Source of the DNA: a virus
Length of the DNA: 64,000 nucleotides
Strand: one strand, 5' to 3'
Virus record (IMG/VR): IMGVR_UViG_3300037225_001188
Coordinates: 66,794-130,793 of that record
The position numbers were made by a program, and so were the translations under genes. The notes under the pieces were generated by a model. It worked only from the letters and a program-made list of their open reading frames with translations, was not told the DNA's origin and did not search any database. This document shows, piece by piece, positions 3,406 through 10,165 of the stretch (positions are counted from its first letter, which is position 1; every line of letters begins with the position of its first letter).

Positions 3406-3885
3406 ATGAAGAACCTCAAGCACTACCAGCGAGCCTATGATTCTAGGCGCCGTCCTAACCGCTCTCCGGATGCATTGCTCTCCGACGTCCTAGACAAGGT
3501 TGCCACCGCCCACACCATCCTCGAGCCCGACTTCACCCCAGGCAAGGATGCTGTTGCCGCCACCCTGCTCGAGCTGGTCTACGCCTTCGAGCGCCTCGAC
3601 TCCTGGTTCTCGCACGGAGGGTCTAAGCCGCGGCTCTGGGCCAGGAAGAAGCTGCAGCATACCTCTCCCGTTTCTCCTGACGAGGTAGAGGTCGTGGTCT
3701 CCAGGCGCGGTCTTCCATGTCCCCTCAGCGGCGTCGAGGTCACTCTCACTGGAGAGTCCCAGGAGTTCGCGTGCCCGTGTGGGGCGATGTTTCAGGTCAC
3801 CGGGTTGAGGACGCTCTTGATCGGTGTGCACCTGGCACAGCTGTCGTGGTGGTTCAGGACGTACGGCGACTTCATCAGGCCTTAA
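3406..3885 (+). CDS. hypothetical protein
   Basis: 159-aa ORF with ATG; first rightward gene after the non-coding zone. Confidence 0.5.
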   Translation: MKNLKHYQRAYDSRRRPNRSPDALLSDVLDKVATAHTILEPDFTPGKDAVAATLLELVYAFERLDSWFSHGGSKPRLWARKKLQHTSPVSPDEVEVVVSRRGLPCPLSGVEVTLTGESQEFACPCGAMFQVTGLRTLLIGVHLAQLSWWFRTYGDFIRP

Positions 3886-4088: not shown

Positions 4089-4712
4089 GTGAAAGTTCGC
4101 GAGCTGGTAGAGAAGCTGCAAGCCCTGCCGCAGGACCTCGACGCGTACGTTCAGGAGGGCGACTCGCCTAGCTACGCCTACCGGGCGGTCGAGTCCGCGG
4201 TGCGGCCGGCGGTGATCTCCGATGACGGGCGGCTGGCTGCGCTCCTCGCGGGTCGTCGTGAGGGGACCGTGCTCGACGGGGGTCTGAACTTCCGCGACGC
4301 CATGTCCGATGCCCTCCAGCGTGAACAGCTTCAGCGAGCGGTTCAGGGTCTTCACGATCACCGGCGTCGGGGGTCGACCGCGCCCGTCCCTGACGGCCTT
4401 GGCGACCTCGCCCTTGACCAGGCTGCGCAGCTCGCGGACCGACAGCTCCTTGCTGAGCGACACCATCGAGGACAGCTTCAAGGAGAGCGTTTGCCGGCCA
4501 CGTCTGCGAAGACGACGAGCGCTTCGCGGTCGGAGACCGTGTCTCCGTCGGGACCTCAGACGAGGCGGCGCCTAACGCCACCGTGCAGAGCCCGCCGTTC
4601 ACGGAGCGCGGCAAGCTCCGCATCTTGTTCGACGGCAGCTCGGTCACCTACGACATCCCGCGCTCGCTCTGCAAGAAGATCTGAAAATCCTCTCTCGTAC
4701 ACTTCCTCATGA
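4089..4712 (+). pseudogene. scrambled/mosaic small phage gene(s)
   Basis: N-terminus MKVRELVEKLQALPQD with AGGAGG; 4310-4489 codes better on the minus strand; 4490-4684 codes in another plus frame with no start. Confidence 0.4.
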
Positions 4713-5488
4713 AGCCTGATCGACCCCGCCTCTACCGCGGCCGCCCCGTCCGGCCGAAGGCTGCGGCCGACCGGCCCGGCCGCACGGGCAACCCGCTCGT
4801 CGCCGTCGGGTACATCCGCGTCTCGAAGGATGAGCAGGACCTCTCCCCCGAGGCCCAGCTCGAGGCGATGGAGGGATGGTGCCGCGGCCGAGGCGTCGTC
4901 CTCGCCTCGTGGCACGAGGACCGCCTCTGCAGCGTCACCGCGGTGGACCAGCGCCCCGGGCTGATGGAGGCGCTCGAGCAGGTGCAGGCGCTCGGGGCCG
5001 GCGTGCTCCTCGTCGCCAAGCGCGACCGCCTCGCCCGCGACCCCATCATCACCGCGATGGTCGAGCGCCTGGTCGAGCGCGCCGGCGCCCGGGTGCAGTC
5101 CGCGGCTGGCGAGGGCACGGACGGCGACGGCCCGGTCGACCAGCTCATGCGGCGCATCGTCGACGCCTTCGCCGAGTACGAGCGGGCCCTCATCCGCCAA
5201 CGCACCAAGGCCGCGCTGGCCGTCAAGAGCCGCCGCGGGGAGCGCGTCGGGGGCGTCCCGTACGGGTGGCGGGTCGCCGCGGACGGGGTGCACCTGATTC
5301 CCGACGAGGTCGAGCAGCACATCATCAAGATGGCGAGCGAGCTGCGCGACCAGGGGCAGTCGCTCAACGAGGTCTCGGACTCGCTTGCTCGCTTGGACCT
5401 CGTCTCGCGCCGCGGGGTCCCGTTACAGAAGATGTCGATCAAGCGGATGGTGAGCGGGCGGAGGCTCGCCCAGGTGGACCTGACTTGA
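4709..5488 (+). CDS. serine recombinase (resolvase/invertase family with C-terminal extension)
   Basis: GYIRVSKDEQ (catalytic Ser), LLVAKRDRLARD, FAEYERALIRQRT, GGVPYGW. Confidence 0.92.
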   Translation: MKPDRPRLYRGRPVRPKAAADRPGRTGNPLVAVGYIRVSKDEQDLSPEAQLEAMEGWCRGRGVVLASWHEDRLCSVTAVDQRPGLMEALEQVQALGAGVLLVAKRDRLARDPIITAMVERLVERAGARVQSAAGEGTDGDGPVDQLMRRIVDAFAEYERALIRQRTKAALAVKSRRGERVGGVPYGWRVAADGVHLIPDEVEQHIIKMASELRDQGQSLNEVSDSLARLDLVSRRGVPLQKMSIKRMVSGRRLAQVDLT

Positions 5489-5655
5489 TCGTCTGTGACC
5501 ACTGCCGGCAGAGCGTGCTCGCCAGGCGCCGGGTCGTCTGCCCGCACTGCGACGCCGACCTGTGCGAGGGCTGCTACGACTCGCACCGCTGCCACGGGCG
5601 CGAGGACGCCTGCCGCTGCCGAGAGGAGAGTCATGCTCCAGACCGACCTGCTTGA
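5485..5655 (+). CDS. small Cys-rich (zinc-finger-like) protein
   Basis: TTG overlapping recombinase stop; CDHC...CPHC...CEGC..HRC. Confidence 0.4.
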   Translation: MIVCDHCRQSVLARRRVVCPHCDADLCEGCYDSHRCHGREDACRCREESHAPDRPA

Positions 5656-6901
5656 CCGCATCGCCGCAACCACTAAGAAGAACGAGAAGCTCGCGCTCCT
5701 GAAACAGGTCGAGGGGGAGACCCGCGAGCTGCTGCGTCTGGCGCTCGATCCGATGGTCACCTTCGGGCTCACCGTCGCCGAGTGCACGAAGCATGGCTGG
5801 AGCGGCGACCCGCAGGAGGTCCAGCATGAGCTGCTCCAGGAGGCGGAGTGGTGGCCGGTCCTGACCGACCTGGCCTCCAGGCTGGCGTCGCGCAGCTTGA
5901 CCGGCAACGAGGCGAAGGAGGCGGTCCACGTCGTTTGCCAGTCGGCGCCGAACGCCGCGGCCGCGTTGTGGGCGTCGCGGATGCTCAACAAGGATCTCCG
6001 CGCCGGGGTCGCCGGCGGCATCGTCCTCGACGCCATCCCCGACCTCTACGAGGAGTTCGAGGTCTGGTTGGCGAAGCCGTACGAAGACCAAGAGCTGCCA
6101 GAGACAGCAGTGCTTGAACGCAAGCTTGATGGGTTACGCATGGTAGTGATGGGAGGCAAAGCCTTCACGAGAAATGGGCACGTCATCTCATCAGTCGATC
6201 CGATAATCGAGCAACTACCAGATCAAGTTCGTAATAAATTCGTAACCGACGGTGAGATCGTTGGAGCCGAGTTCGATGATACTTCCGGTCAGGTGCGACA
6301 AAAGAAAGGACGAGCATCTGAATCGCTCGTGTACAATGTCTTTGATCTTATCTCCTTGCAAGAGTGGAAATCGCGAGACACAGCTATTCTTCTAGAGCGG
6401 AAAGAAATGATGACCGAGTTGCTCATCCCATATCAAACTGAGAATATCGGCGTTGTTCCGTGGGACATTGTCAAGAATATAACAATTGAAGTAGCTATCG
6501 CTAAACGCGATAATTACTTGAGCCTCGGGTACGAAGGCGTAATGATCAAGGACGCATCGAGTCAGTACGTGTGGGGGCGTAACAACTCGATGATGAAACT
6601 CAAGAAGATGGACAACCTCGATGGCATCGTCGTCGGCACATATGAAGGGAAGAAGGGTAAGACTAAAGGCAAGCTCGGAGGTCTGAGCGTAAGACATTCT
6701 GGCAAGATCAAAGGCGGTCTCGAAGTCGAAGCCGTGACCGATGTCGGTAGTGGATTCACTGACAAGCAACGTGTTGAATTGTGGGCAATGCGTGAGCAGC
6801 TTGTCGGTTGGTGTGTCGAGATTCAATTTCAGAACTTCACGTCAAAAGAAGGAAGAATGCGCTTCCCGGTCTATCTTGGAAGGCGTCCAGATAAAGAATG
6901 A
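5633..6901 (+). CDS. lig: ATP-dependent DNA ligase (phage type)
   Basis: motif I ERKLDGLR, III DGEI, IIIa YNVFD, IV EGVMIK, V KLK, OB-fold VGSGFTD, VI RFPVY..RPDK; ATG 5633 after GAGGAG. Confidence 0.95.
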   Translation: MLQTDLLDRIAATTKKNEKLALLKQVEGETRELLRLALDPMVTFGLTVAECTKHGWSGDPQEVQHELLQEAEWWPVLTDLASRLASRSLTGNEAKEAVHVVCQSAPNAAAALWASRMLNKDLRAGVAGGIVLDAIPDLYEEFEVWLAKPYEDQELPETAVLERKLDGLRMVVMGGKAFTRNGHVISSVDPIIEQLPDQVRNKFVTDGEIVGAEFDDTSGQVRQKKGRASESLVYNVFDLISLQEWKSRDTAILLERKEMMTELLIPYQTENIGVVPWDIVKNITIEVAIAKRDNYLSLGYEGVMIKDASSQYVWGRNNSMMKLKKMDNLDGIVVGTYEGKKGKTKGKLGGLSVRHSGKIKGGLEVEAVTDVGSGFTDKQRVELWAMREQLVGWCVEIQFQNFTSKEGRMRFPVYLGRRPDKE

Positions 6902-6981
6902 GACTTGGCTCGGCGGGGCTCGGTTAGGCGGGGCTTGGCGCTGCAAGGCAAGCTACGGCTCGGCGTTCCACGGCAAGGGAT
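6902..6981 (+). ncRNA. 5-nt periodic GGY-NN array; candidate guide-like ncRNA
   Basis: GACTT GGCTC GGCGG GGCTC GGTTA GGCGG GGCTT GGCGC TGCAA GGCAA GCTAC GGCTC GGCGT TCCAC GGCAA GGGAT; 11 of 14 units from 6907-6976 begin with GGY; intergenic, directly upstream of a Cas7-like gene. The periodicity is observed; the RNA role is inferred. Confidence 0.7.
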
Positions 6982-7015
6982 TCATTTAGTTAGTAGAACG
7001 CCAGAAAGATAATCA

Positions 7016-7591
7016 ATGCTGATCACGATAGAGATCAAGGGTCGCACTCCACTGTTGATGAACCGCTTCGGCGAGGTTCCTGAAGTCGCCACGACCAGCG
7101 GGCATGCTCCGGTTATGACGTCTTCGTCAGAGCGTGGCACTCCACGTACTCAGGCGGAGAAGGCCGCGTACCGCGACGCGAAGACCGGAGAGCTGTTCAT
7201 CCCAGGACCGAACGTCCTCTCGTGCCTTGTCGAGGCCGGGAAGTTCACGAAGGCTGGGAAGACGAAGCTCACGACCCAGAAGTCGACGCTCGTCACCGCC
7301 GGTTTGATGCTGAACGAGGTCGCGCTCCCGCTCCACGTCAGCGAGTTCGAGGTCGACTCGCGCGGGGTCGTCATCCCGGCTACCGGGGGGCGCGTCATTC
7401 GTCATCGTCCGCGGCTCGACGAGTGGAGTTTGACGTTCTCGCTAGACGTCGACGAGACGATGTTCTCCGAGTCGTTGGTCAGGACGCTCGTCGACGATGC
7501 CGGGAAGAAGATCGGGCTCGGAGACTATCGTCCATCTCGCAAGGGTCCGTTCGGCAGGTTCGACGTGGTAGGATGGAAGGTCGAGAAGTAA
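7016..7591 (+). CDS. solitary Cas7/RAMP-like protein (191 aa)
   Basis: RAMP-like first strand ITIEIKGRTPLLMN; LFIPGPNVLSCL matching the IP..S.KG helix of Cas7/Csm3; C-terminal Gly-rich loop IGLGDYRPSRKGPFGRFDV. Confidence 0.75.
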   Translation: MLITIEIKGRTPLLMNRFGEVPEVATTSGHAPVMTSSSERGTPRTQAEKAAYRDAKTGELFIPGPNVLSCLVEAGKFTKAGKTKLTTQKSTLVTAGLMLNEVALPLHVSEFEVDSRGVVIPATGGRVIRHRPRLDEWSLTFSLDVDETMFSESLVRTLVDDAGKKIGLGDYRPSRKGPFGRFDVVGWKVEK

Positions 7592-7592
7592 C

Positions 7593-7838
7593 ATGCCGCG
7601 AGGGCCGTACGAACACGACAGCCTGACCTTCGCCCCGGACCGGCAACTCGAGTGTCGGGGGTACGGCAAGTGCCTCGACGTCGCGCTCAGCAGCGGTTGG
7701 GTGTCGTGGTGTTGCACCGGGTGCACGAAGTTCGTCGAGCTGACGGCCGAGGAGAAGACCAGCGACATGATCGCCCTGCTCCACATCCTCGGGGAGCTGG
7801 AGTTCCCGCTCGGCATCAAGAAGAGGCACGACCCGTGA
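7593..7838 (+). CDS. small Cys-rich protein
   Basis: 81 aa; C..Y..C...W.CxxC; starts 1 nt after the Cas7-like stop. Confidence 0.6.
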   Translation: MPRGPYEHDSLTFAPDRQLECRGYGKCLDVALSSGWVSWCCTGCTKFVELTAEEKTSDMIALLHILGELEFPLGIKKRHDP

Positions 7839-8467
7839 GGCCGGATCGCTACGACGGCGACCCCGACCTCGACCGCCTTGAGCGCACCGTCGCCGGGCTC
7901 GACGGCGTCGTCGAGATGGCGGTCACGGCCGCTCGCGAGAAGATCGGTGAGCCGACGTGCGCCGGGTGCCGGAGCCCGGGGTGCTGCTACCAGCGCGTGT
8001 CGGTGACGCTGGCGGAGGCCCTGCCGATCGCGCGCCGGCTCATCAGCCGCGGGTTCGACTCCCCCGGGGTGCGGCGGCGGCTCGCCGGCGAGGGTGAGGA
8101 GATGTCGTCGCGCACGCCAGAGGAGTGGTGGGCGCTGTCGAGGCCGTGCTTCTTCCTCGGCGAGGGGCGGTGCTCTATCTACGACGTGCGCCCGGTGGCG
8201 TGCCGCGCTCGCTTCTCGTGGAGCGACCCGGAGTTGTGCCAGCCGCCGGCCGTCAGCGACGTCGTGACCGTCGACATGGTCGGCGCCGCCCGAGCCGTGG
8301 TGCAGCTCAACCTCGAGCTGTGCCGCGGCCTCGGCCTGAATGACGTCGTCACCTACGCCGGCGCCATGCCGCGGATGGTGGCGGTCGCGCTCGAGGCGCT
8401 CAGCAGAGACACCGCCGCTGCCGTCGAGTACCTATGGGGGCTGGAGTTTCCGATCGCGGGCCGCTGA
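7835..8467 (+). CDS. YkgJ/FliB-type Cys-cluster (Zn or Fe-S) protein
   Basis: CAGCRSPGCC ... PCFFL..GRCSIYDVRPVACR; GTGA overlap start. Confidence 0.8.
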   Translation: MRPDRYDGDPDLDRLERTVAGLDGVVEMAVTAAREKIGEPTCAGCRSPGCCYQRVSVTLAEALPIARRLISRGFDSPGVRRRLAGEGEEMSSRTPEEWWALSRPCFFLGEGRCSIYDVRPVACRARFSWSDPELCQPPAVSDVVTVDMVGAARAVVQLNLELCRGLGLNDVVTYAGAMPRMVAVALEALSRDTAAAVEYLWGLEFPIAGR

Positions 8468-8502
8468 GCCGTCAAGCAAAACCTCGCGACGTACACCTCG
8501 AC

Positions 8503-8751
8503 ATGAAGATCAACGACCCGCTCGAGGCAGTCCGCGAGATCGACGGCAAGGTCAAGGAGGCCCTCTCCGGCGTCGAGCCTACCGGCGAGGTCCGGTCGGC
8601 CGTCACCAAGTATCTGCTCGCGATGGCGGCGACCGTCGCGAGGTCCGCCGGGGCCAGCGTCAGCGACTACCTGGAGGAGGCTCGGCAGACGTGGGACGAG
8701 TCAGCCGCGCCGCAGCAAGCGCCGACTGCCGAGCCGGCGACCATCAACTGA
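8503..8751 (+). CDS. hypothetical protein
   Basis: ATG start, GC3 bias, coupled to next gene (TGATG). Confidence 0.55.
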   Translation: MKINDPLEAVREIDGKVKEALSGVEPTGEVRSAVTKYLLAMAATVARSAGASVSDYLEEARQTWDESAAPQQAPTAEPATIN

Positions 8752-9062
8752 TGCGCCAGGTCGTCACTATCAATGTGGTCTCCGGGTCCCCGAGACCGTG
8801 GACGTTCTACACCGTCTACCAGCTGCCGGACCTGAGCTACGTCGCCTCGCGGCGCAGCGAGGTCGACCTCGGGTGGCGGCTCGGGCAGCTCATAGGCCTC
8901 AAGGACGGCGAGATCGTTGGCTACGTCGCGACGCTTAGGACGTGCGGTGATGCGCAGAGCTGGTCCCACGTCTTCATGTGCGGGAGCCTCATCGTGGTTG
9001 AACCCGACGACTACTCTCAGGGGATACCGACCGTGCTCTATCTGAAGGTTGATGATGCGTGA
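8751..9062 (+). CDS. hypothetical protein
   Basis: ATG overlapping previous stop; MRQVVTINV... Confidence 0.5.
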   Translation: MRQVVTINVVSGSPRPWTFYTVYQLPDLSYVASRRSEVDLGWRLGQLIGLKDGEIVGYVATLRTCGDAQSWSHVFMCGSLIVVEPDDYSQGIPTVLYLKVDDA

Positions 9063-9271: not shown

Positions 9272-10165
9272 ATGAAGATGTCTGAGAAGCGCAAGCGCAC
9301 CGCGATCGACGCCAAGCGCGGCGTCGTGTTCTGGGTCGAGCAGGACAAGCTCACCCTCATCACCGACGAGTCACGCCCGCTGTTCGACCCGTCGGCGCTC
9401 TTCTCACCCGACCCCGAGCTGGTTCAGAGCCTCATCGTCGAGGGCCAGGTGCAGGAGTTGCTGGCCCGCCGCAACGGCCCGCTGCTCGAGATCATCGACG
9501 GCAACCGTCGCTACAAGGCCGGCTGCCTCGCTGGCAAGAAGCAGGGGCGGCCGTTCGTGTTCCGCGTCCGCGTGGTCGACGCGGCCAGCGACGCCGAGTT
9601 CTACCGGATGAAGCTGGCAGCCAACCTCCACAAGAAGGCGCCGCCGACTGTGGAGGCACAGCGCATCTCGCGCTTCCTCAAGGCCGGCGGGACCGAAGAG
9701 GAGGCGATGGTCGCCGTCGGGGCGAAGAGCGTGACGACCGTGCACAACAAGCTGGCGCTGCTGCGCTGCTGCGCCAAGGTCCAGCGGATGGTCGACTCCG
9801 GCGAGCTGACCGAGACTATTGCGGTCGAGCTGTCGGGCCTGACGCGCGAGAAGCAGGAGCAGGCGGTCGATGAGATGGAGAAGAACGGGACGCTGCGCGG
9901 CGAGGTCGCGCGGCGGTCGGTGAAGGCAGCGAAGAGCGGCAAGAAGCTGCCGACGAAGGATGGGCCGCGGCCGCTCACTCAGTCGAAGCTCGAGAAGCTC
10001 TCCGACGAGCTGTCGAACTACGCGGAGTCGAGCGACTTCGTCGCCTTCATCGCCCTCATCCTCGGCGACGAGAAGATGTTCGAGGACCTGCCGTCGTTCG
10101 TGAAGGCGGCCTACGACTCGGTCACGAAGGCCAAGAAGGTGTCCAAGGAGAAGAAGGCGGCGTAG
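9272..10165 (+). CDS. ParB/Srx-like N-terminal domain protein with HTH
   Basis: LEIIDGNRRYKA, later AANL, followed by HTH-like helices; GGAGG RBS. Confidence 0.8.
   Translation: MKMSEKRKRTAIDAKRGVVFWVEQDKLTLITDESRPLFDPSALFSPDPELVQSLIVEGQVQELLARRNGPLLEIIDGNRRYKAGCLAGKKQGRPFVFRVRVVDAASDAEFYRMKLAANLHKKAPPTVEAQRISRFLKAGGTEEEAMVAVGAKSVTTVHNKLALLRCCAKVQRMVDSGELTETIAVELSGLTREKQEQAVDEMEKNGTLRGEVARRSVKAAKSGKKLPTKDGPRPLTQSKLEKLSDELSNYAESSDFVAFIALILGDEKMFEDLPSFVKAAYDSVTKAKKVSKEKKAA

What the first reader, a model, noticed from the sequence alone, without database searches (positions are those of the whole stretch)
6905..6976. The variable dinucleotides may spell a gapped target code
Seen: the NN positions read TT,TC,GG,TC,TA,GG,TT,GC,AA,AA,AC,TC,GT,AC,AA. 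They are diverse, unlike a slippage microsatellite, while the triplets stay nearly fixed and the tract closes with GGCAAGG. Inference: information is stored only in the NN slots, read contiguously or with a skipped base (TCnGGnTCnTAnGGnTTnGCnAA...). Skipping every third base would make recognition blind to codon wobble changes. I found no match inside this window by eye, so a target would be external.
Basis: inference. Interest (0 to 1): 0.8.

Follow-up and report, generated by a model that had tools for sequence, protein, structure and literature searches.

The report
Phage VIPR guide RNA repeat array
This stretch is the guide-RNA repeat array of a recently described phage system called VIPR, and its variable base pairs, read with every third base skipped, spell a conserved site in the DNA ligase gene of related phages.

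Summary
Window 6905-6979 holds 15 pentamers NN+GGC-like (11 of 15 triplets are GGY), unique in the 130.8-kb virus record. It lies 36 nt upstream of a 191-aa gene whose only PDB sequence match is 'SUSP1 Vipr protein' and whose model has a Cas7/Csm3-like RAMP fold.

I tested the code here. Across 53 arrays of this Vipr clade, matches to held viral loci are enriched only at gap 1: 109 hits against 13-19 in three controls, 8 at gap 0 and 18 at gap 2.

For this window, units 1-12 read antisense decode to [DE]V[FL][FL]A[KN]PY[DE]P[DE][KN]. That equals 12 of 12 codons of EVFLAKPYDPDK in two of the three closest homologues of the ligase gene just upstream of the array. The phage's own ligase site matches 19 of 24 bases.

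No perfect DNA-level target was found in the collections I could scan, and the DNA of those homologues was out of reach. Expression, tail structure and an accessory gene are unconfirmed.

Verdict: a new member of a known kind, with a predicted target.

The parts
5633..6901 (+). ATP-dependent DNA ligase gene, immediately upstream of the array. Its homologues in related phages carry the predicted target site.
   Evidence: Pfam DNA_ligase_A_M 8.7e-13 and DNA_ligase_OB_2 1.1e-09; phrog_114 3.6e-88; database protein P0121 is 422 aa and 100% identical. GC3 is 0.67, against 0.91-0.95 in orf81 and the ParB-like gene.
6059..6093 (-). The phage's own copy of the predicted target site (codons of EVWLAKPYEDQE). 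It is a partial match to guide units 1-12.
   Evidence: Best 1-nt-skip match in the whole virus record: 20 of 30 over 15 units, 19 of 24 over units 1-12, 17 of 18 over units 4-12. All skip bases fall on codon position 3. On total identity it is not significant alone: 26 of 200 shuffled guides reach 20 of 30.
6905..6964 (+). vrRNA guide region: repeat units 1-12 (NN + GGY). NN = TT TC GG TC TA GG TT GC AA AA AC TC.
   Evidence: Sequence. Ten of the 12 triplets are GGY. The antisense decoding equals 12 of 12 codon classes of P0123 and P0124. Permuted unit orders reach at most 8 (n=100).
6965..6979 (+). Units 13-15 (GTTCC ACGGC AAGGG): the end of the tract, probably part of the 3' tail rather than guide.
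   Evidence: They add no match in any of the 105 aligned ligase proteins (104 homologues and the phage's own); the score over 15 units equals the score over 12 in all the best rows. The GGC-AAGG(A/G) ending recurs at the end of arrays in related loci.
6962..7002 (+). Possible tail hairpin: GGCGUUC pairs with GAACGCC.
   Evidence: Minimum-free-energy folds. Weak: z-score -1.23, and 24 of 200 shuffles fold as well. Inferred only.
7016..7591 (+). vipr gene: a 191-aa RAMP-fold protein, homologue of SUSP1 Vipr.
   Evidence: The only PDB sequence match is 36pp_D 'SUSP1 Vipr protein', E 3.5e-07 for the single sequence and 2.7e-10 for the profile. AF2 model pLDDT 83.7. Top Foldseek matches are subunits of type III-A Csm and type VII complexes, E from 4.9e-07. 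phrog_4652 9.9e-21; no Pfam family.
7593..7838 (+). 81-aa Cys-rich ORF that starts 2 nt after the vipr stop. It is a candidate accessory gene, unconfirmed.
   Evidence: GC3 0.91 marks this as the coding frame, while the overlapping frame of the 7652 ORF has GC3 0.48 up to 7840. No Pfam or PADLOC family. Atlas neighbours are unnamed ~80-aa proteins. No tblastn match in the 80 related loci.

Best explanation
The tract is the single vrRNA gene of a VIPR system (Viral Interference Programmable Repeat) carried by a 131-kb uncultivated virus. By analogy with the SUSP1 system, copies of the Vipr protein encoded at 7016-7591 bind the transcript one per pentamer. They hold each GGY triplet and present the NN dinucleotides, which pair with DNA in which every third base is skipped. 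Units 1-12 (6905-6964) are the guide. Units 13-15 and the following ~25 nt are the 3' tail. Read antisense with a 1-nt skip, the guide specifies the codons [DE]V[FL][FL]A[KN]PY[DE]P[DE][KN]. This is the site EVFLAKPYDPDK just before the KLDG (adenylation) motif of the DNA ligase of related phages. The likely effect is silencing or blocking of a rival phage's ligase gene. The phage's own ligase, right next to the array, differs at 5 of the 24 read bases. What is shown here: the repeat anatomy, homology of the protein to Vipr with conserved RNA-contact residues, enrichment of the 1-nt skip in this clade, and the codon-level match to foreign ligases. What is inferred: transcription and processing, filament assembly, DNA binding, repression, and escape of the own copy.
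For: (1) Anatomy: 15 NN+GGY-like units, unique in the record. They lie 36 nt upstream of the gene, within the 9-16 YNNGG units reported for vrRNAs (PMC13142463 Results). (2) Protein: the only PDB sequence hit is SUSP1 Vipr. In that alignment SUSP1 D177/W178/R179 and R138, named as contacts of G1, G2 and Y3 in the triplex preprint (Results part 1), align with D170/Y171/R172 and R131. D170, R172 and R131 are invariant in 33 family members. The model has a RAMP fold like the subunits of Csm complexes. (3) Family-wide linkage: 42 of 71 related loci have an upstream array, against 6.6% of control windows. In 912 called units, positions 1-2 carry 1.88 and 1.97 bits of entropy, position 4 is 96% G and position 5 is 98% pyrimidine (the caller favours xGY, so the last two figures are partly by construction). 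(4) Code in this clade: 452 ten-unit guide windows were scanned against 722 kb of held loci. Hits of 17/20 or better numbered 8 at skip 0, 109 at skip 1 and 18 at skip 2. At skip 1 the controls gave 13 (base-shuffled), 17 (unit order permuted) and 19 (backwards). 93 of the 109 hits lie upstream of vipr. The recurrent sites examined fall in a gene next to the relatives' arrays; 2 of the 9 translated copies were put to Pfam and both are DUF669. Hits fall on both strands, and in the example checked the skip is on codon position 3. (5) This guide: of 104 ligase homologues, P0123 and P0124 match 12 of 12 codon classes and P0122 matches 11 of 12. These are the three closest homologues (52-53% identity). 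The next best scores 10 and the phage's own ligase scores 8. 100 unit-order permutations reach 6-8. 5 of the 30 exact hits to units 1-8 in viral contigs lie in ligase genes; by position, checked for two of them, they fall at the homologous site.
Against: No perfect DNA-level target was found. Exact seeds in viral contigs gave 30 hits (units 1-8), 6 hits (units 7-14) and 33 hits (units 4-11). None extends beyond chance; the best are 24 of 30 and 22 of 30. A 20-base seed (units 1-7, 9, 11, 12) gave 0 hits in viral, 3 in genome and 3 in metagenome contigs. All lie in unrelated genes, and the best scores 26 of 30 in a low-GC MAG. The ligase match rests on protein sequences. Four of 15 triplets are not GGY. 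No promoter-like site lies between ligase and array. The tract and tail show no significant fold (z +0.25 and -1.23). No conserved accessory (vap) gene was recognised. The similarity to SUSP1 Vipr is remote and covers residues 45-184 only. The own ligase site at 19 of 24 (79%) is close to the 80% cut-off the authors use for calling targets, so self-avoidance is not shown. Hits are not independent: the windows overlap and the target genes are homologous (62 guide-target locus pairs).
Confidence: 0.8

Rival explanations
1. The guide acts on the phage's own ligase gene: VIPR tunes expression of the adjacent gene through a partly matched site, and foreign genes are not the purpose.
For: The best 1-nt-skip match in the whole record lies in the adjacent ligase gene, in the wobble register. 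It matches 17 of 18 bases over units 4-12 and 19 of 24 over units 1-12.
Against: Foreign alleles match better: 12 of 12 codon classes against 8 of 12 for the own gene. In relatives the own site is also lower than the best foreign site, for example 25 against 29 of 34 and 18 against 27 of 32. The authors report no self hits at 80% or more NN match (methods section). 20 of 30 is reached by 26 of 200 shuffled guides.
Confidence: 0.07
2. The guide pairs with RNA, not DNA. It is antisense to the ligase coding strand, so it could bind a rival's ligase mRNA.
For: The guide NN equal the template strand, so the RNA is complementary to ligase mRNA. The triplex preprint shows that Vipr-vrRNA can form a duplex with an ssRNA target.
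Against: In the same preprint ssRNA gave mostly incomplete filaments (66% were 7-subunit) and no triplex. In this clade many guides match the coding strand itself, for example L072, L077, L067, L062 and L080 on '+'. Those cannot pair with mRNA.
Confidence: 0.07
3. The tract is only a protein-binding leader: a TRAP-like or autoregulatory site in the 5' UTR of the downstream gene, with the NN as meaningless spacers.
For: The tract lies in the 114-nt gap directly upstream of the gene, and arrays in relatives end in the ribosome-binding region (AAACCAAGGAG). A 5-nt period of triplet plus 2-nt spacer recalls TRAP sites (recalled, not from a call).
Against: Spacers would not decode to 12 of 12 codons of a neighbouring gene's homologues. 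Nor would they give a skip-1-specific excess of matches across the clade.
Confidence: 0.04
4. The tract is a chance G+C-rich sequence, a slippage microsatellite, or part of the 82-aa ORF 6741-6989.
For: An ORF spans the tract, and the genome is G+C-rich.
Against: The tract is unique in the record and conserved in position across 42 of 71 related loci against 6.6% of controls. The NN are diverse. Similar 'ORFs' in relatives are translations of arrays.
Confidence: 0.02

Closest known systems
VIPR systems of Escherichia phage SUSP1 and a Pseudomonas fulva prophage (type II; preprints 10.64898/2026.04.26.720920 = PMC13142463, 10.64898/2026.04.26.720927, 10.64898/2026.10.15.759431)
   Same: A ~20-kDa RAMP protein stands next to a tract of YNNGG/GGY-NN pentamers in a virus. 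The G-loop residues D-aromatic-R and the thumb arginine are conserved. The tract has 15 units, within the reported 9-16. The 1-nt skip falls on the wobble position, and targets lie in rival phages.
   Different: The protein is only remotely similar (E 3.5e-07, residues 45-184). There is one vrRNA, upstream only, against four in SUSP1. No vap1-like neighbour was recognised. No pseudoknot-like tail was detected. The predicted target is a replication gene (ligase; a DUF669 gene in relatives) homologous to the gene beside the array, not a satellite, a lysogeny regulator or a VIPR locus. The type (I-VII) could not be assigned because the defining figures and tables are supplements that I could not open.
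Cas7-family backbone subunits of class 1 CRISPR effectors (Csm3/Cmr4)
   Same: The RRM/RAMP fold with a glycine-rich loop is shared. Top Foldseek hits are subunits of type III-A Csm and type VII complexes, E from 4.9e-07, TM 0.42-0.57. Binding along a guide RNA is periodic.
   Different: There is no repeat-spacer array and no cas gene among the neighbours scanned. The guide is read 2 bases in 5, against 5 in 6. Sequence identity in the Foldseek rows is 12-16%.
Free-standing homing endonucleases of T4-like phages (recalled from general knowledge, not from a call)
   Same: The element sits beside the phage's own diverged allele of the gene it recognises in relatives.
   Different: Recognition is RNA-guided and, as published for type II, by binding rather than cutting. 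No nuclease is adjacent here, and no gene conversion is shown.

Membership tests
VIPR system (Vipr + vrRNA) | A Vipr protein: a minimal RAMP homologous to characterised Vipr | tested here: met
   The only PDB sequence match is 36pp_D 'SUSP1 Vipr protein', E 2.7e-10 (profile) and 3.5e-07 (single sequence). RAMP-like fold.
VIPR system (Vipr + vrRNA) | Residues that hold the GGY motif (SUSP1 D177, W178, R179, R138, H17) | tested here: inconclusive
   D177/W178/R179 align with D170/Y171/R172, and R138 aligns with R131. D170, R172 and R131 are invariant in 33 sequences. H17 lies outside the aligned part, so it was not assessed.
VIPR system (Vipr + vrRNA) | A tract of 9-16 tandem pentamers of conserved GGY alternating with variable NN, in an intergenic region flanking vipr | tested here: met
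   15 units at 6905-6979, 11 of them with GGY, 36 nt upstream of vipr. NN entropy is 1.88 and 1.97 bits across 912 units of related arrays.
VIPR system (Vipr + vrRNA) | An invariable, structured 3' tail after the repeats | tested here: inconclusive
   A shared GGC-AAGG(A/G) ending appears in relatives. The possible hairpin at 6962-7002 has a z-score of only -1.23.
VIPR system (Vipr + vrRNA) | Target specified by NN joined with a 1-nt skip, with the skip at codon wobble | tested here: met
   Clade level: 109 hits at skip 1 against 8 (skip 0), 18 (skip 2) and 13-19 in controls. This guide: 12 of 12 codon classes in P0123 and P0124. The own site has all skips on codon position 3. The match is at the level of codons inferred from proteins, not of target DNA.
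VIPR system (Vipr + vrRNA) | An accessory gene (vap) beside vipr | tested here: inconclusive
   An 81-aa Cys-rich ORF follows vipr but has no family and no match in 80 related loci. Relatives carry a helicase (13 loci), a small protein (9 loci; 2 members scanned, both RusA), another small protein (5 loci; 2 scanned, both GemA) or AAA_24 downstream. The definitions of vap1-6 are in supplements I could not open.
VIPR system (Vipr + vrRNA) | The vrRNA is expressed as a ~100-nt RNA and co-purifies with Vipr | not testable with these tools
   This needs RNA data or an experiment.
VIPR system (Vipr + vrRNA) | Viral or proviral genomic setting | tested here: met
   The window lies in a 130,793-nt virus record rated 100% complete. 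All related loci come from viral contigs.
TRAP-type RNA leader (trp RNA-binding attenuation protein site) | About 11 GAG/UAG triplets separated by 2-3 nt (recalled) and a TRAP protein | tested here: not met
   The triplets are GGY, not (G/U)AG. None of the five neighbouring proteins scanned has a TRAP family hit.
CRISPR-Cas class 1 | A repeat-spacer array and cas operon | tested here: not met
   No such repeats in 5000-9000. The neighbours are a resolvase, a ligase, a CxxCxxCC protein and a ParB-like protein. Only the RAMP fold is shared.

The most novel reading that the evidence does not exclude
In this Vipr clade the cassette (vrRNA + vipr) sits directly downstream of the phage's own mismatch-bearing allele of the gene that its guide recognises in relatives: ligase here, a DUF669 gene in others. 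The best self-match lies within 600 nt upstream of the array in 10 of 38 related loci, against 3.3 expected (binomial p 0.0012), and in the adjacent gene in this window. Read boldly, this is an RNA-guided analogue of phage homing or marker-exclusion elements, or a natural 'silence-and-rescue' module. The guide disables rival alleles of an essential replication gene, while the linked resistant allele, which also offers a homology arm, is favoured or co-inherited. The words homing, ligase and DUF669 do not occur in the main texts of two of the three VIPR preprints. Their supplements and the third text were not searched for them.
Probability: 0.3. Interest if true: 0.7.

Novelty: new member of a known kind. 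Interest (0 to 1): 0.45.

Why it matters
VIPR was described only in 2026 preprints and characterised in two closely related systems. This locus extends the GGY/NN code to a distant Vipr clade in an uncultivated 131-kb virus that also turns up in peat-metagenome runs. The extension rests on an independent computational test of the 1-nt skip in that clade. The locus also comes with a concrete predicted target, the ligase gene of related phages. That target gives a ready reporter design for testing a compact programmable DNA binder (191 aa plus ~100 nt of RNA). It also raises the idea that such cassettes travel with a resistant allele of the gene they target.

Tried and rejected
- Rfam at gathering thresholds over the whole window: 0 matches. 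tRNA scan: none.
- blastn of 5600-9000 against GenBank phages: no match.
- tblastn of P0123 against GenBank phages: best 32.5% identity, so no close cultured relative to check at DNA level.
- The search for related loci with the ligase alone in viral contigs: nothing.
- Exact gapped seeds in viral, genome and metagenome contigs: only chance-level extensions. A 24-of-30 match has a chance of 4.1e-10 per position. It is therefore expected by chance in collections of tens of gigabases, and the 24-of-30 hit (L108) was set aside.
- The six 20-base seed hits share a peptide by construction of the pattern and lie in unrelated proteins.
- No self target at skip 0 or 2.
- Sequencing runs: no RNA holder listed.
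- Contigs of four DNA runs laid on 6400-7700: the parts of the tract that were covered (6920-7139 in X2, 6576-6939 in X3) showed no other letters, so nothing could be learned about NN variability between strains.
- Promoter scan: none.
- PADLOC: no family for vipr, orf81, the CxxC protein or the ligase.
- VIPR type (I-VII) and vap identities could not be assigned because the supplements are closed.
- My first idea, a TRAP-like protein-binding leader, was dropped after the PDB hit.

Full report
**What is there.** Window 6905-6979 (+ strand) is 15 head-to-tail pentamers: TTGGC TCGGC GGGGC TCGGT TAGGC GGGGC TTGGC GCTGC AAGGC AAGCT ACGGC TCGGC GTTCC ACGGC AAGGG. The tract ends at 6979, and 11 of 15 triplets are GGY. 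It fills most of a 114-nt gap between an ATP-dependent DNA ligase gene (5633-6901) and a 191-aa ORF (7016-7591). The window is part of a 130,793-nt virus record rated complete. The tract is the only one of its kind in that record.

**The neighbouring protein.** The 191-aa ORF has no Pfam family and belongs to phrog_4652, of unknown function. A search of 5.8 billion proteins scored 1,837 candidates, and 1,580 of them had E <= 0.001. Among the 120 listed, the few that carry a name are all called hypothetical.

A profile of 33 members has one match among PDB sequences: 36pp_D, 'SUSP1 Vipr protein', E 2.7e-10. The single sequence gives E 3.5e-07 over residues 45-184. The AlphaFold model (pLDDT 83.7) is most like subunits of type III-A Csm and type VII CRISPR complexes (E from 4.9e-07).

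In the HMMER alignment, SUSP1 D177/W178/R179 and R138 fall on D170/Y171/R172 and R131. D170, R172 and R131 are invariant in the family. The triplex preprint names those SUSP1 residues as contacts of the two guanines and the pyrimidine of GGY (Results part 1 read).

**What is published.** A full-text search led to three 2026 preprints.
- PMC13142463 (abstract, Results, Discussion and legends read; methods passages of the bioRxiv version). It describes VIPR: a Vipr RAMP protein plus vrRNAs of 9-16 YNNGG repeats and a 3' tail. The target is given by the NN dinucleotides joined by one skipped base. Targets occur on either strand, without a PAM, with the skip mostly at the wobble position. Targets lie in rival mobile elements. 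There are seven types, and some have a single vrRNA.
- 10.64898/2026.04.26.720927 (abstract and Results part 1). It gives the structural basis.
- 10.64898/2026.10.15.759431 (abstract and sections 8, 17 and 26). It adds satellite competition, and guides whose self-match is lower than their match to relatives.

**Is the array a family feature?** In 42 of 71 non-identical related viral loci, the 150 nt upstream of the vipr homologue hold 5 or more perfect GGY units in one register. That compares with 340 of 5,136 control windows (6.6%). With the looser xGY unit, 10 or more units occur in 50 of 71 loci against 6.2% of controls.

In 52 of 72 distinct array calls (score >= 5; the other 20 were left out), 912 units give 1.88 and 1.97 bits at the NN positions, 96% G at position 4 and 98% pyrimidine at position 5. 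The caller favours xGY, so those last figures are partly built in. Position 3 is G in only 57%, a 'related consensus'. Arrays commonly end in GGC-AA(A/T)CC-AAGG, or in GGC-AAGG(A/G) as here.

**Testing the code in this clade.** I cut 53 arrays (this one included) into 452 windows of 10 units. I scanned them against 81 held targets (722 kb; each array's own locus excluded). Hits of 17/20 or better:

| Skip | Observed hits | Base-shuffled guides | Unit-order permuted | Backwards guides |
|---|---|---|---|---|
| 0 | 8 | 14 | 19 | 22 |
| 1 | 109 (62 guide-target locus pairs) | 13 | 17 | 19 |
| 2 | 18 | 12 | 12 | 27 |

. Skip 3 gave 64 hits (16 with base-shuffled guides); I read them, without inspecting them, as arrays matching near-identical arrays in other loci, and the other two controls were not run at skip 3.

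93 of the 109 skip-1 hits lie upstream of vipr in the target locus. The recurrent sites I examined fall in a ~150-aa gene lying just before the array; 9 copies were translated and the 2 put to Pfam are DUF669. Hits occur on both strands, and the skip is on codon position 3 in the example checked.

The best full-length cases are L077 on L071 at 27 of 32, L093 on L076 at 29 of 34, and L088 on L091 at 28 of 34. Each is above that guide's own-locus best (18, 25 and 22). The hits are not independent, because windows overlap and targets are homologous. The specificity for skip 1 is still clear.

**The target of this guide.** Within the phage's own record, the best skip-1 match (20 of 30) is not significant on identity: 26 of 200 shuffled guides reach it. 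It does lie in the adjacent ligase gene on the minus strand, with every skip on codon position 3. It matches 17 of 18 bases over units 4-12, at the peptide EVWLAKPYEDQE.

Read antisense, units 12 to 1 give [DE]V[FL][FL]A[KN]PY[DE]P[DE][KN]. Among 104 ligase homologues, the three closest (52-53% identity) read EVFLAKPYDPDK (P0123 and P0124, 12 of 12 classes) and EVFLAKPYDPSK (P0122, 11 of 12). The next best scores 10 and the phage's own ligase scores 8. One hundred unit-order permutations reach 6-8 in either orientation.

Units 13-15 add nothing in any of the 105 aligned ligase proteins, the phage's own included. They overlap a possible hairpin at 6962-7002, which is weak (z -1.23). I therefore take units 1-12 as guide and the rest as tail.

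Independently, 5 of the 30 exact matches to units 1-8 in 2.9 million viral contigs lie in ligase genes. By position, worked out for two of them, they fall at the homologous site. By the genetic code, 23 of the 24 read bases are fixed by the peptide. Only the Leu codon read by unit 9 is open.

**What remains open.** No perfect DNA-level target was found with exact seeds in the viral, genome or metagenome collections. The DNA behind P0122-P0124 could not be fetched. Supplements that may list this clade, its type, its accessory genes and its targets were closed.

The 81-aa ORF after vipr is coding by GC3 but has no family and no counterpart in relatives. In relatives the downstream genes are ordinary phage replication genes.

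Transcription, processing, binding and repression are inferred from the SUSP1 work. The own ligase site at 19 of 24 is near the authors' 80% calling threshold, so escape of the own gene is an inference.

**A pattern worth a follow-up.** The best self-match of a guide lies within 600 nt upstream of its array in 10 of 38 related loci, against 3.3 expected (p 0.0012). For that count, loci with less than 700 nt upstream and arrays of more than 25 units were left out. Here too the best self-match is in the adjacent gene.

The ligase and vipr genes also have a lower GC3 (0.67 and 0.79) than the neighbours (0.91-0.95). This suggests a separately acquired module. A cassette that sits beside a diverged allele of its own target recalls phage homing elements. 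That comparison is recalled from general knowledge, and the reading is speculative.

**Verdict.** The element is a new member of the known VIPR kind, with a predicted ligase target.

Noticed in passing
window 6001-8000 (ligase 5633-6901, vipr 7016-7591): This stretch has 57.6% G+C, against 67-70% on either side. GC3 is 0.67 in the ligase and 0.79 in vipr, against 0.91-0.95 in orf81, the CxxC gene and the ParB-like gene. The ligase-vrRNA-vipr block looks compositionally foreign to the rest of the virus.
   Followed up: partly
L060, L062, L065, L067, L069, L071, L076, L080, L082-L084, about 200-340 nt upstream of vipr: Guides of several related viruses (L071, L072, L077, L093, L062, L067, L065, L080) converge at 1-nt skip on the gene next to the array in other members of the clade. 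Two of the 9 translated copies were scanned against Pfam and both are DUF669 (PF05037). Hits fall on both strands.
   Followed up: partly
L073 and L079 upstream of vipr; many loci downstream of vipr: Some relatives have very long tracts: 69 and 46 units in the first caller. In many relatives, short 'ORFs' just after vipr have the look of translated pentamer arrays (motifs like ARQGKA). That suggests further vrRNAs downstream, which this window lacks.
   Followed up: no
window 4709-5488 and 3406-3885: A serine recombinase (Resolvase domain, 1.6e-29) ends just before the long ORF that holds the ligase. An HNH endonuclease-like ORF (phrog_865, 1.5e-06) lies 3 kb upstream of the array.
   Followed up: no
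window 7841-8467 and 9272-10165: A CxxCxxCC (putative zinc/iron-chelating) domain protein and a ParB-like protein follow the VIPR block. The listed ORF start at 7652 is too early by GC3; the real start is after about 7841.
   Followed up: partly
window 6400-7700 in coded runs X1-X9: Five peat-metagenome runs hold 29-98% of the sampled words, and the best holder may be the source sample. Four of them (X2-X5) were laid, and their contigs are 95-100% alike with 3 single-letter differences, none in the array.
   Followed up: partly
L130-L135: All six exact hits to the 20-base gapped seed translate to K-P-(Y or stop)-(D/E)-P-E-(K/N) on the opposite strand. This follows from the pattern fixing codon positions 1-2 and is not a sign of homology. 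It is a trap when reading gapped-guide hits.
   Followed up: yes
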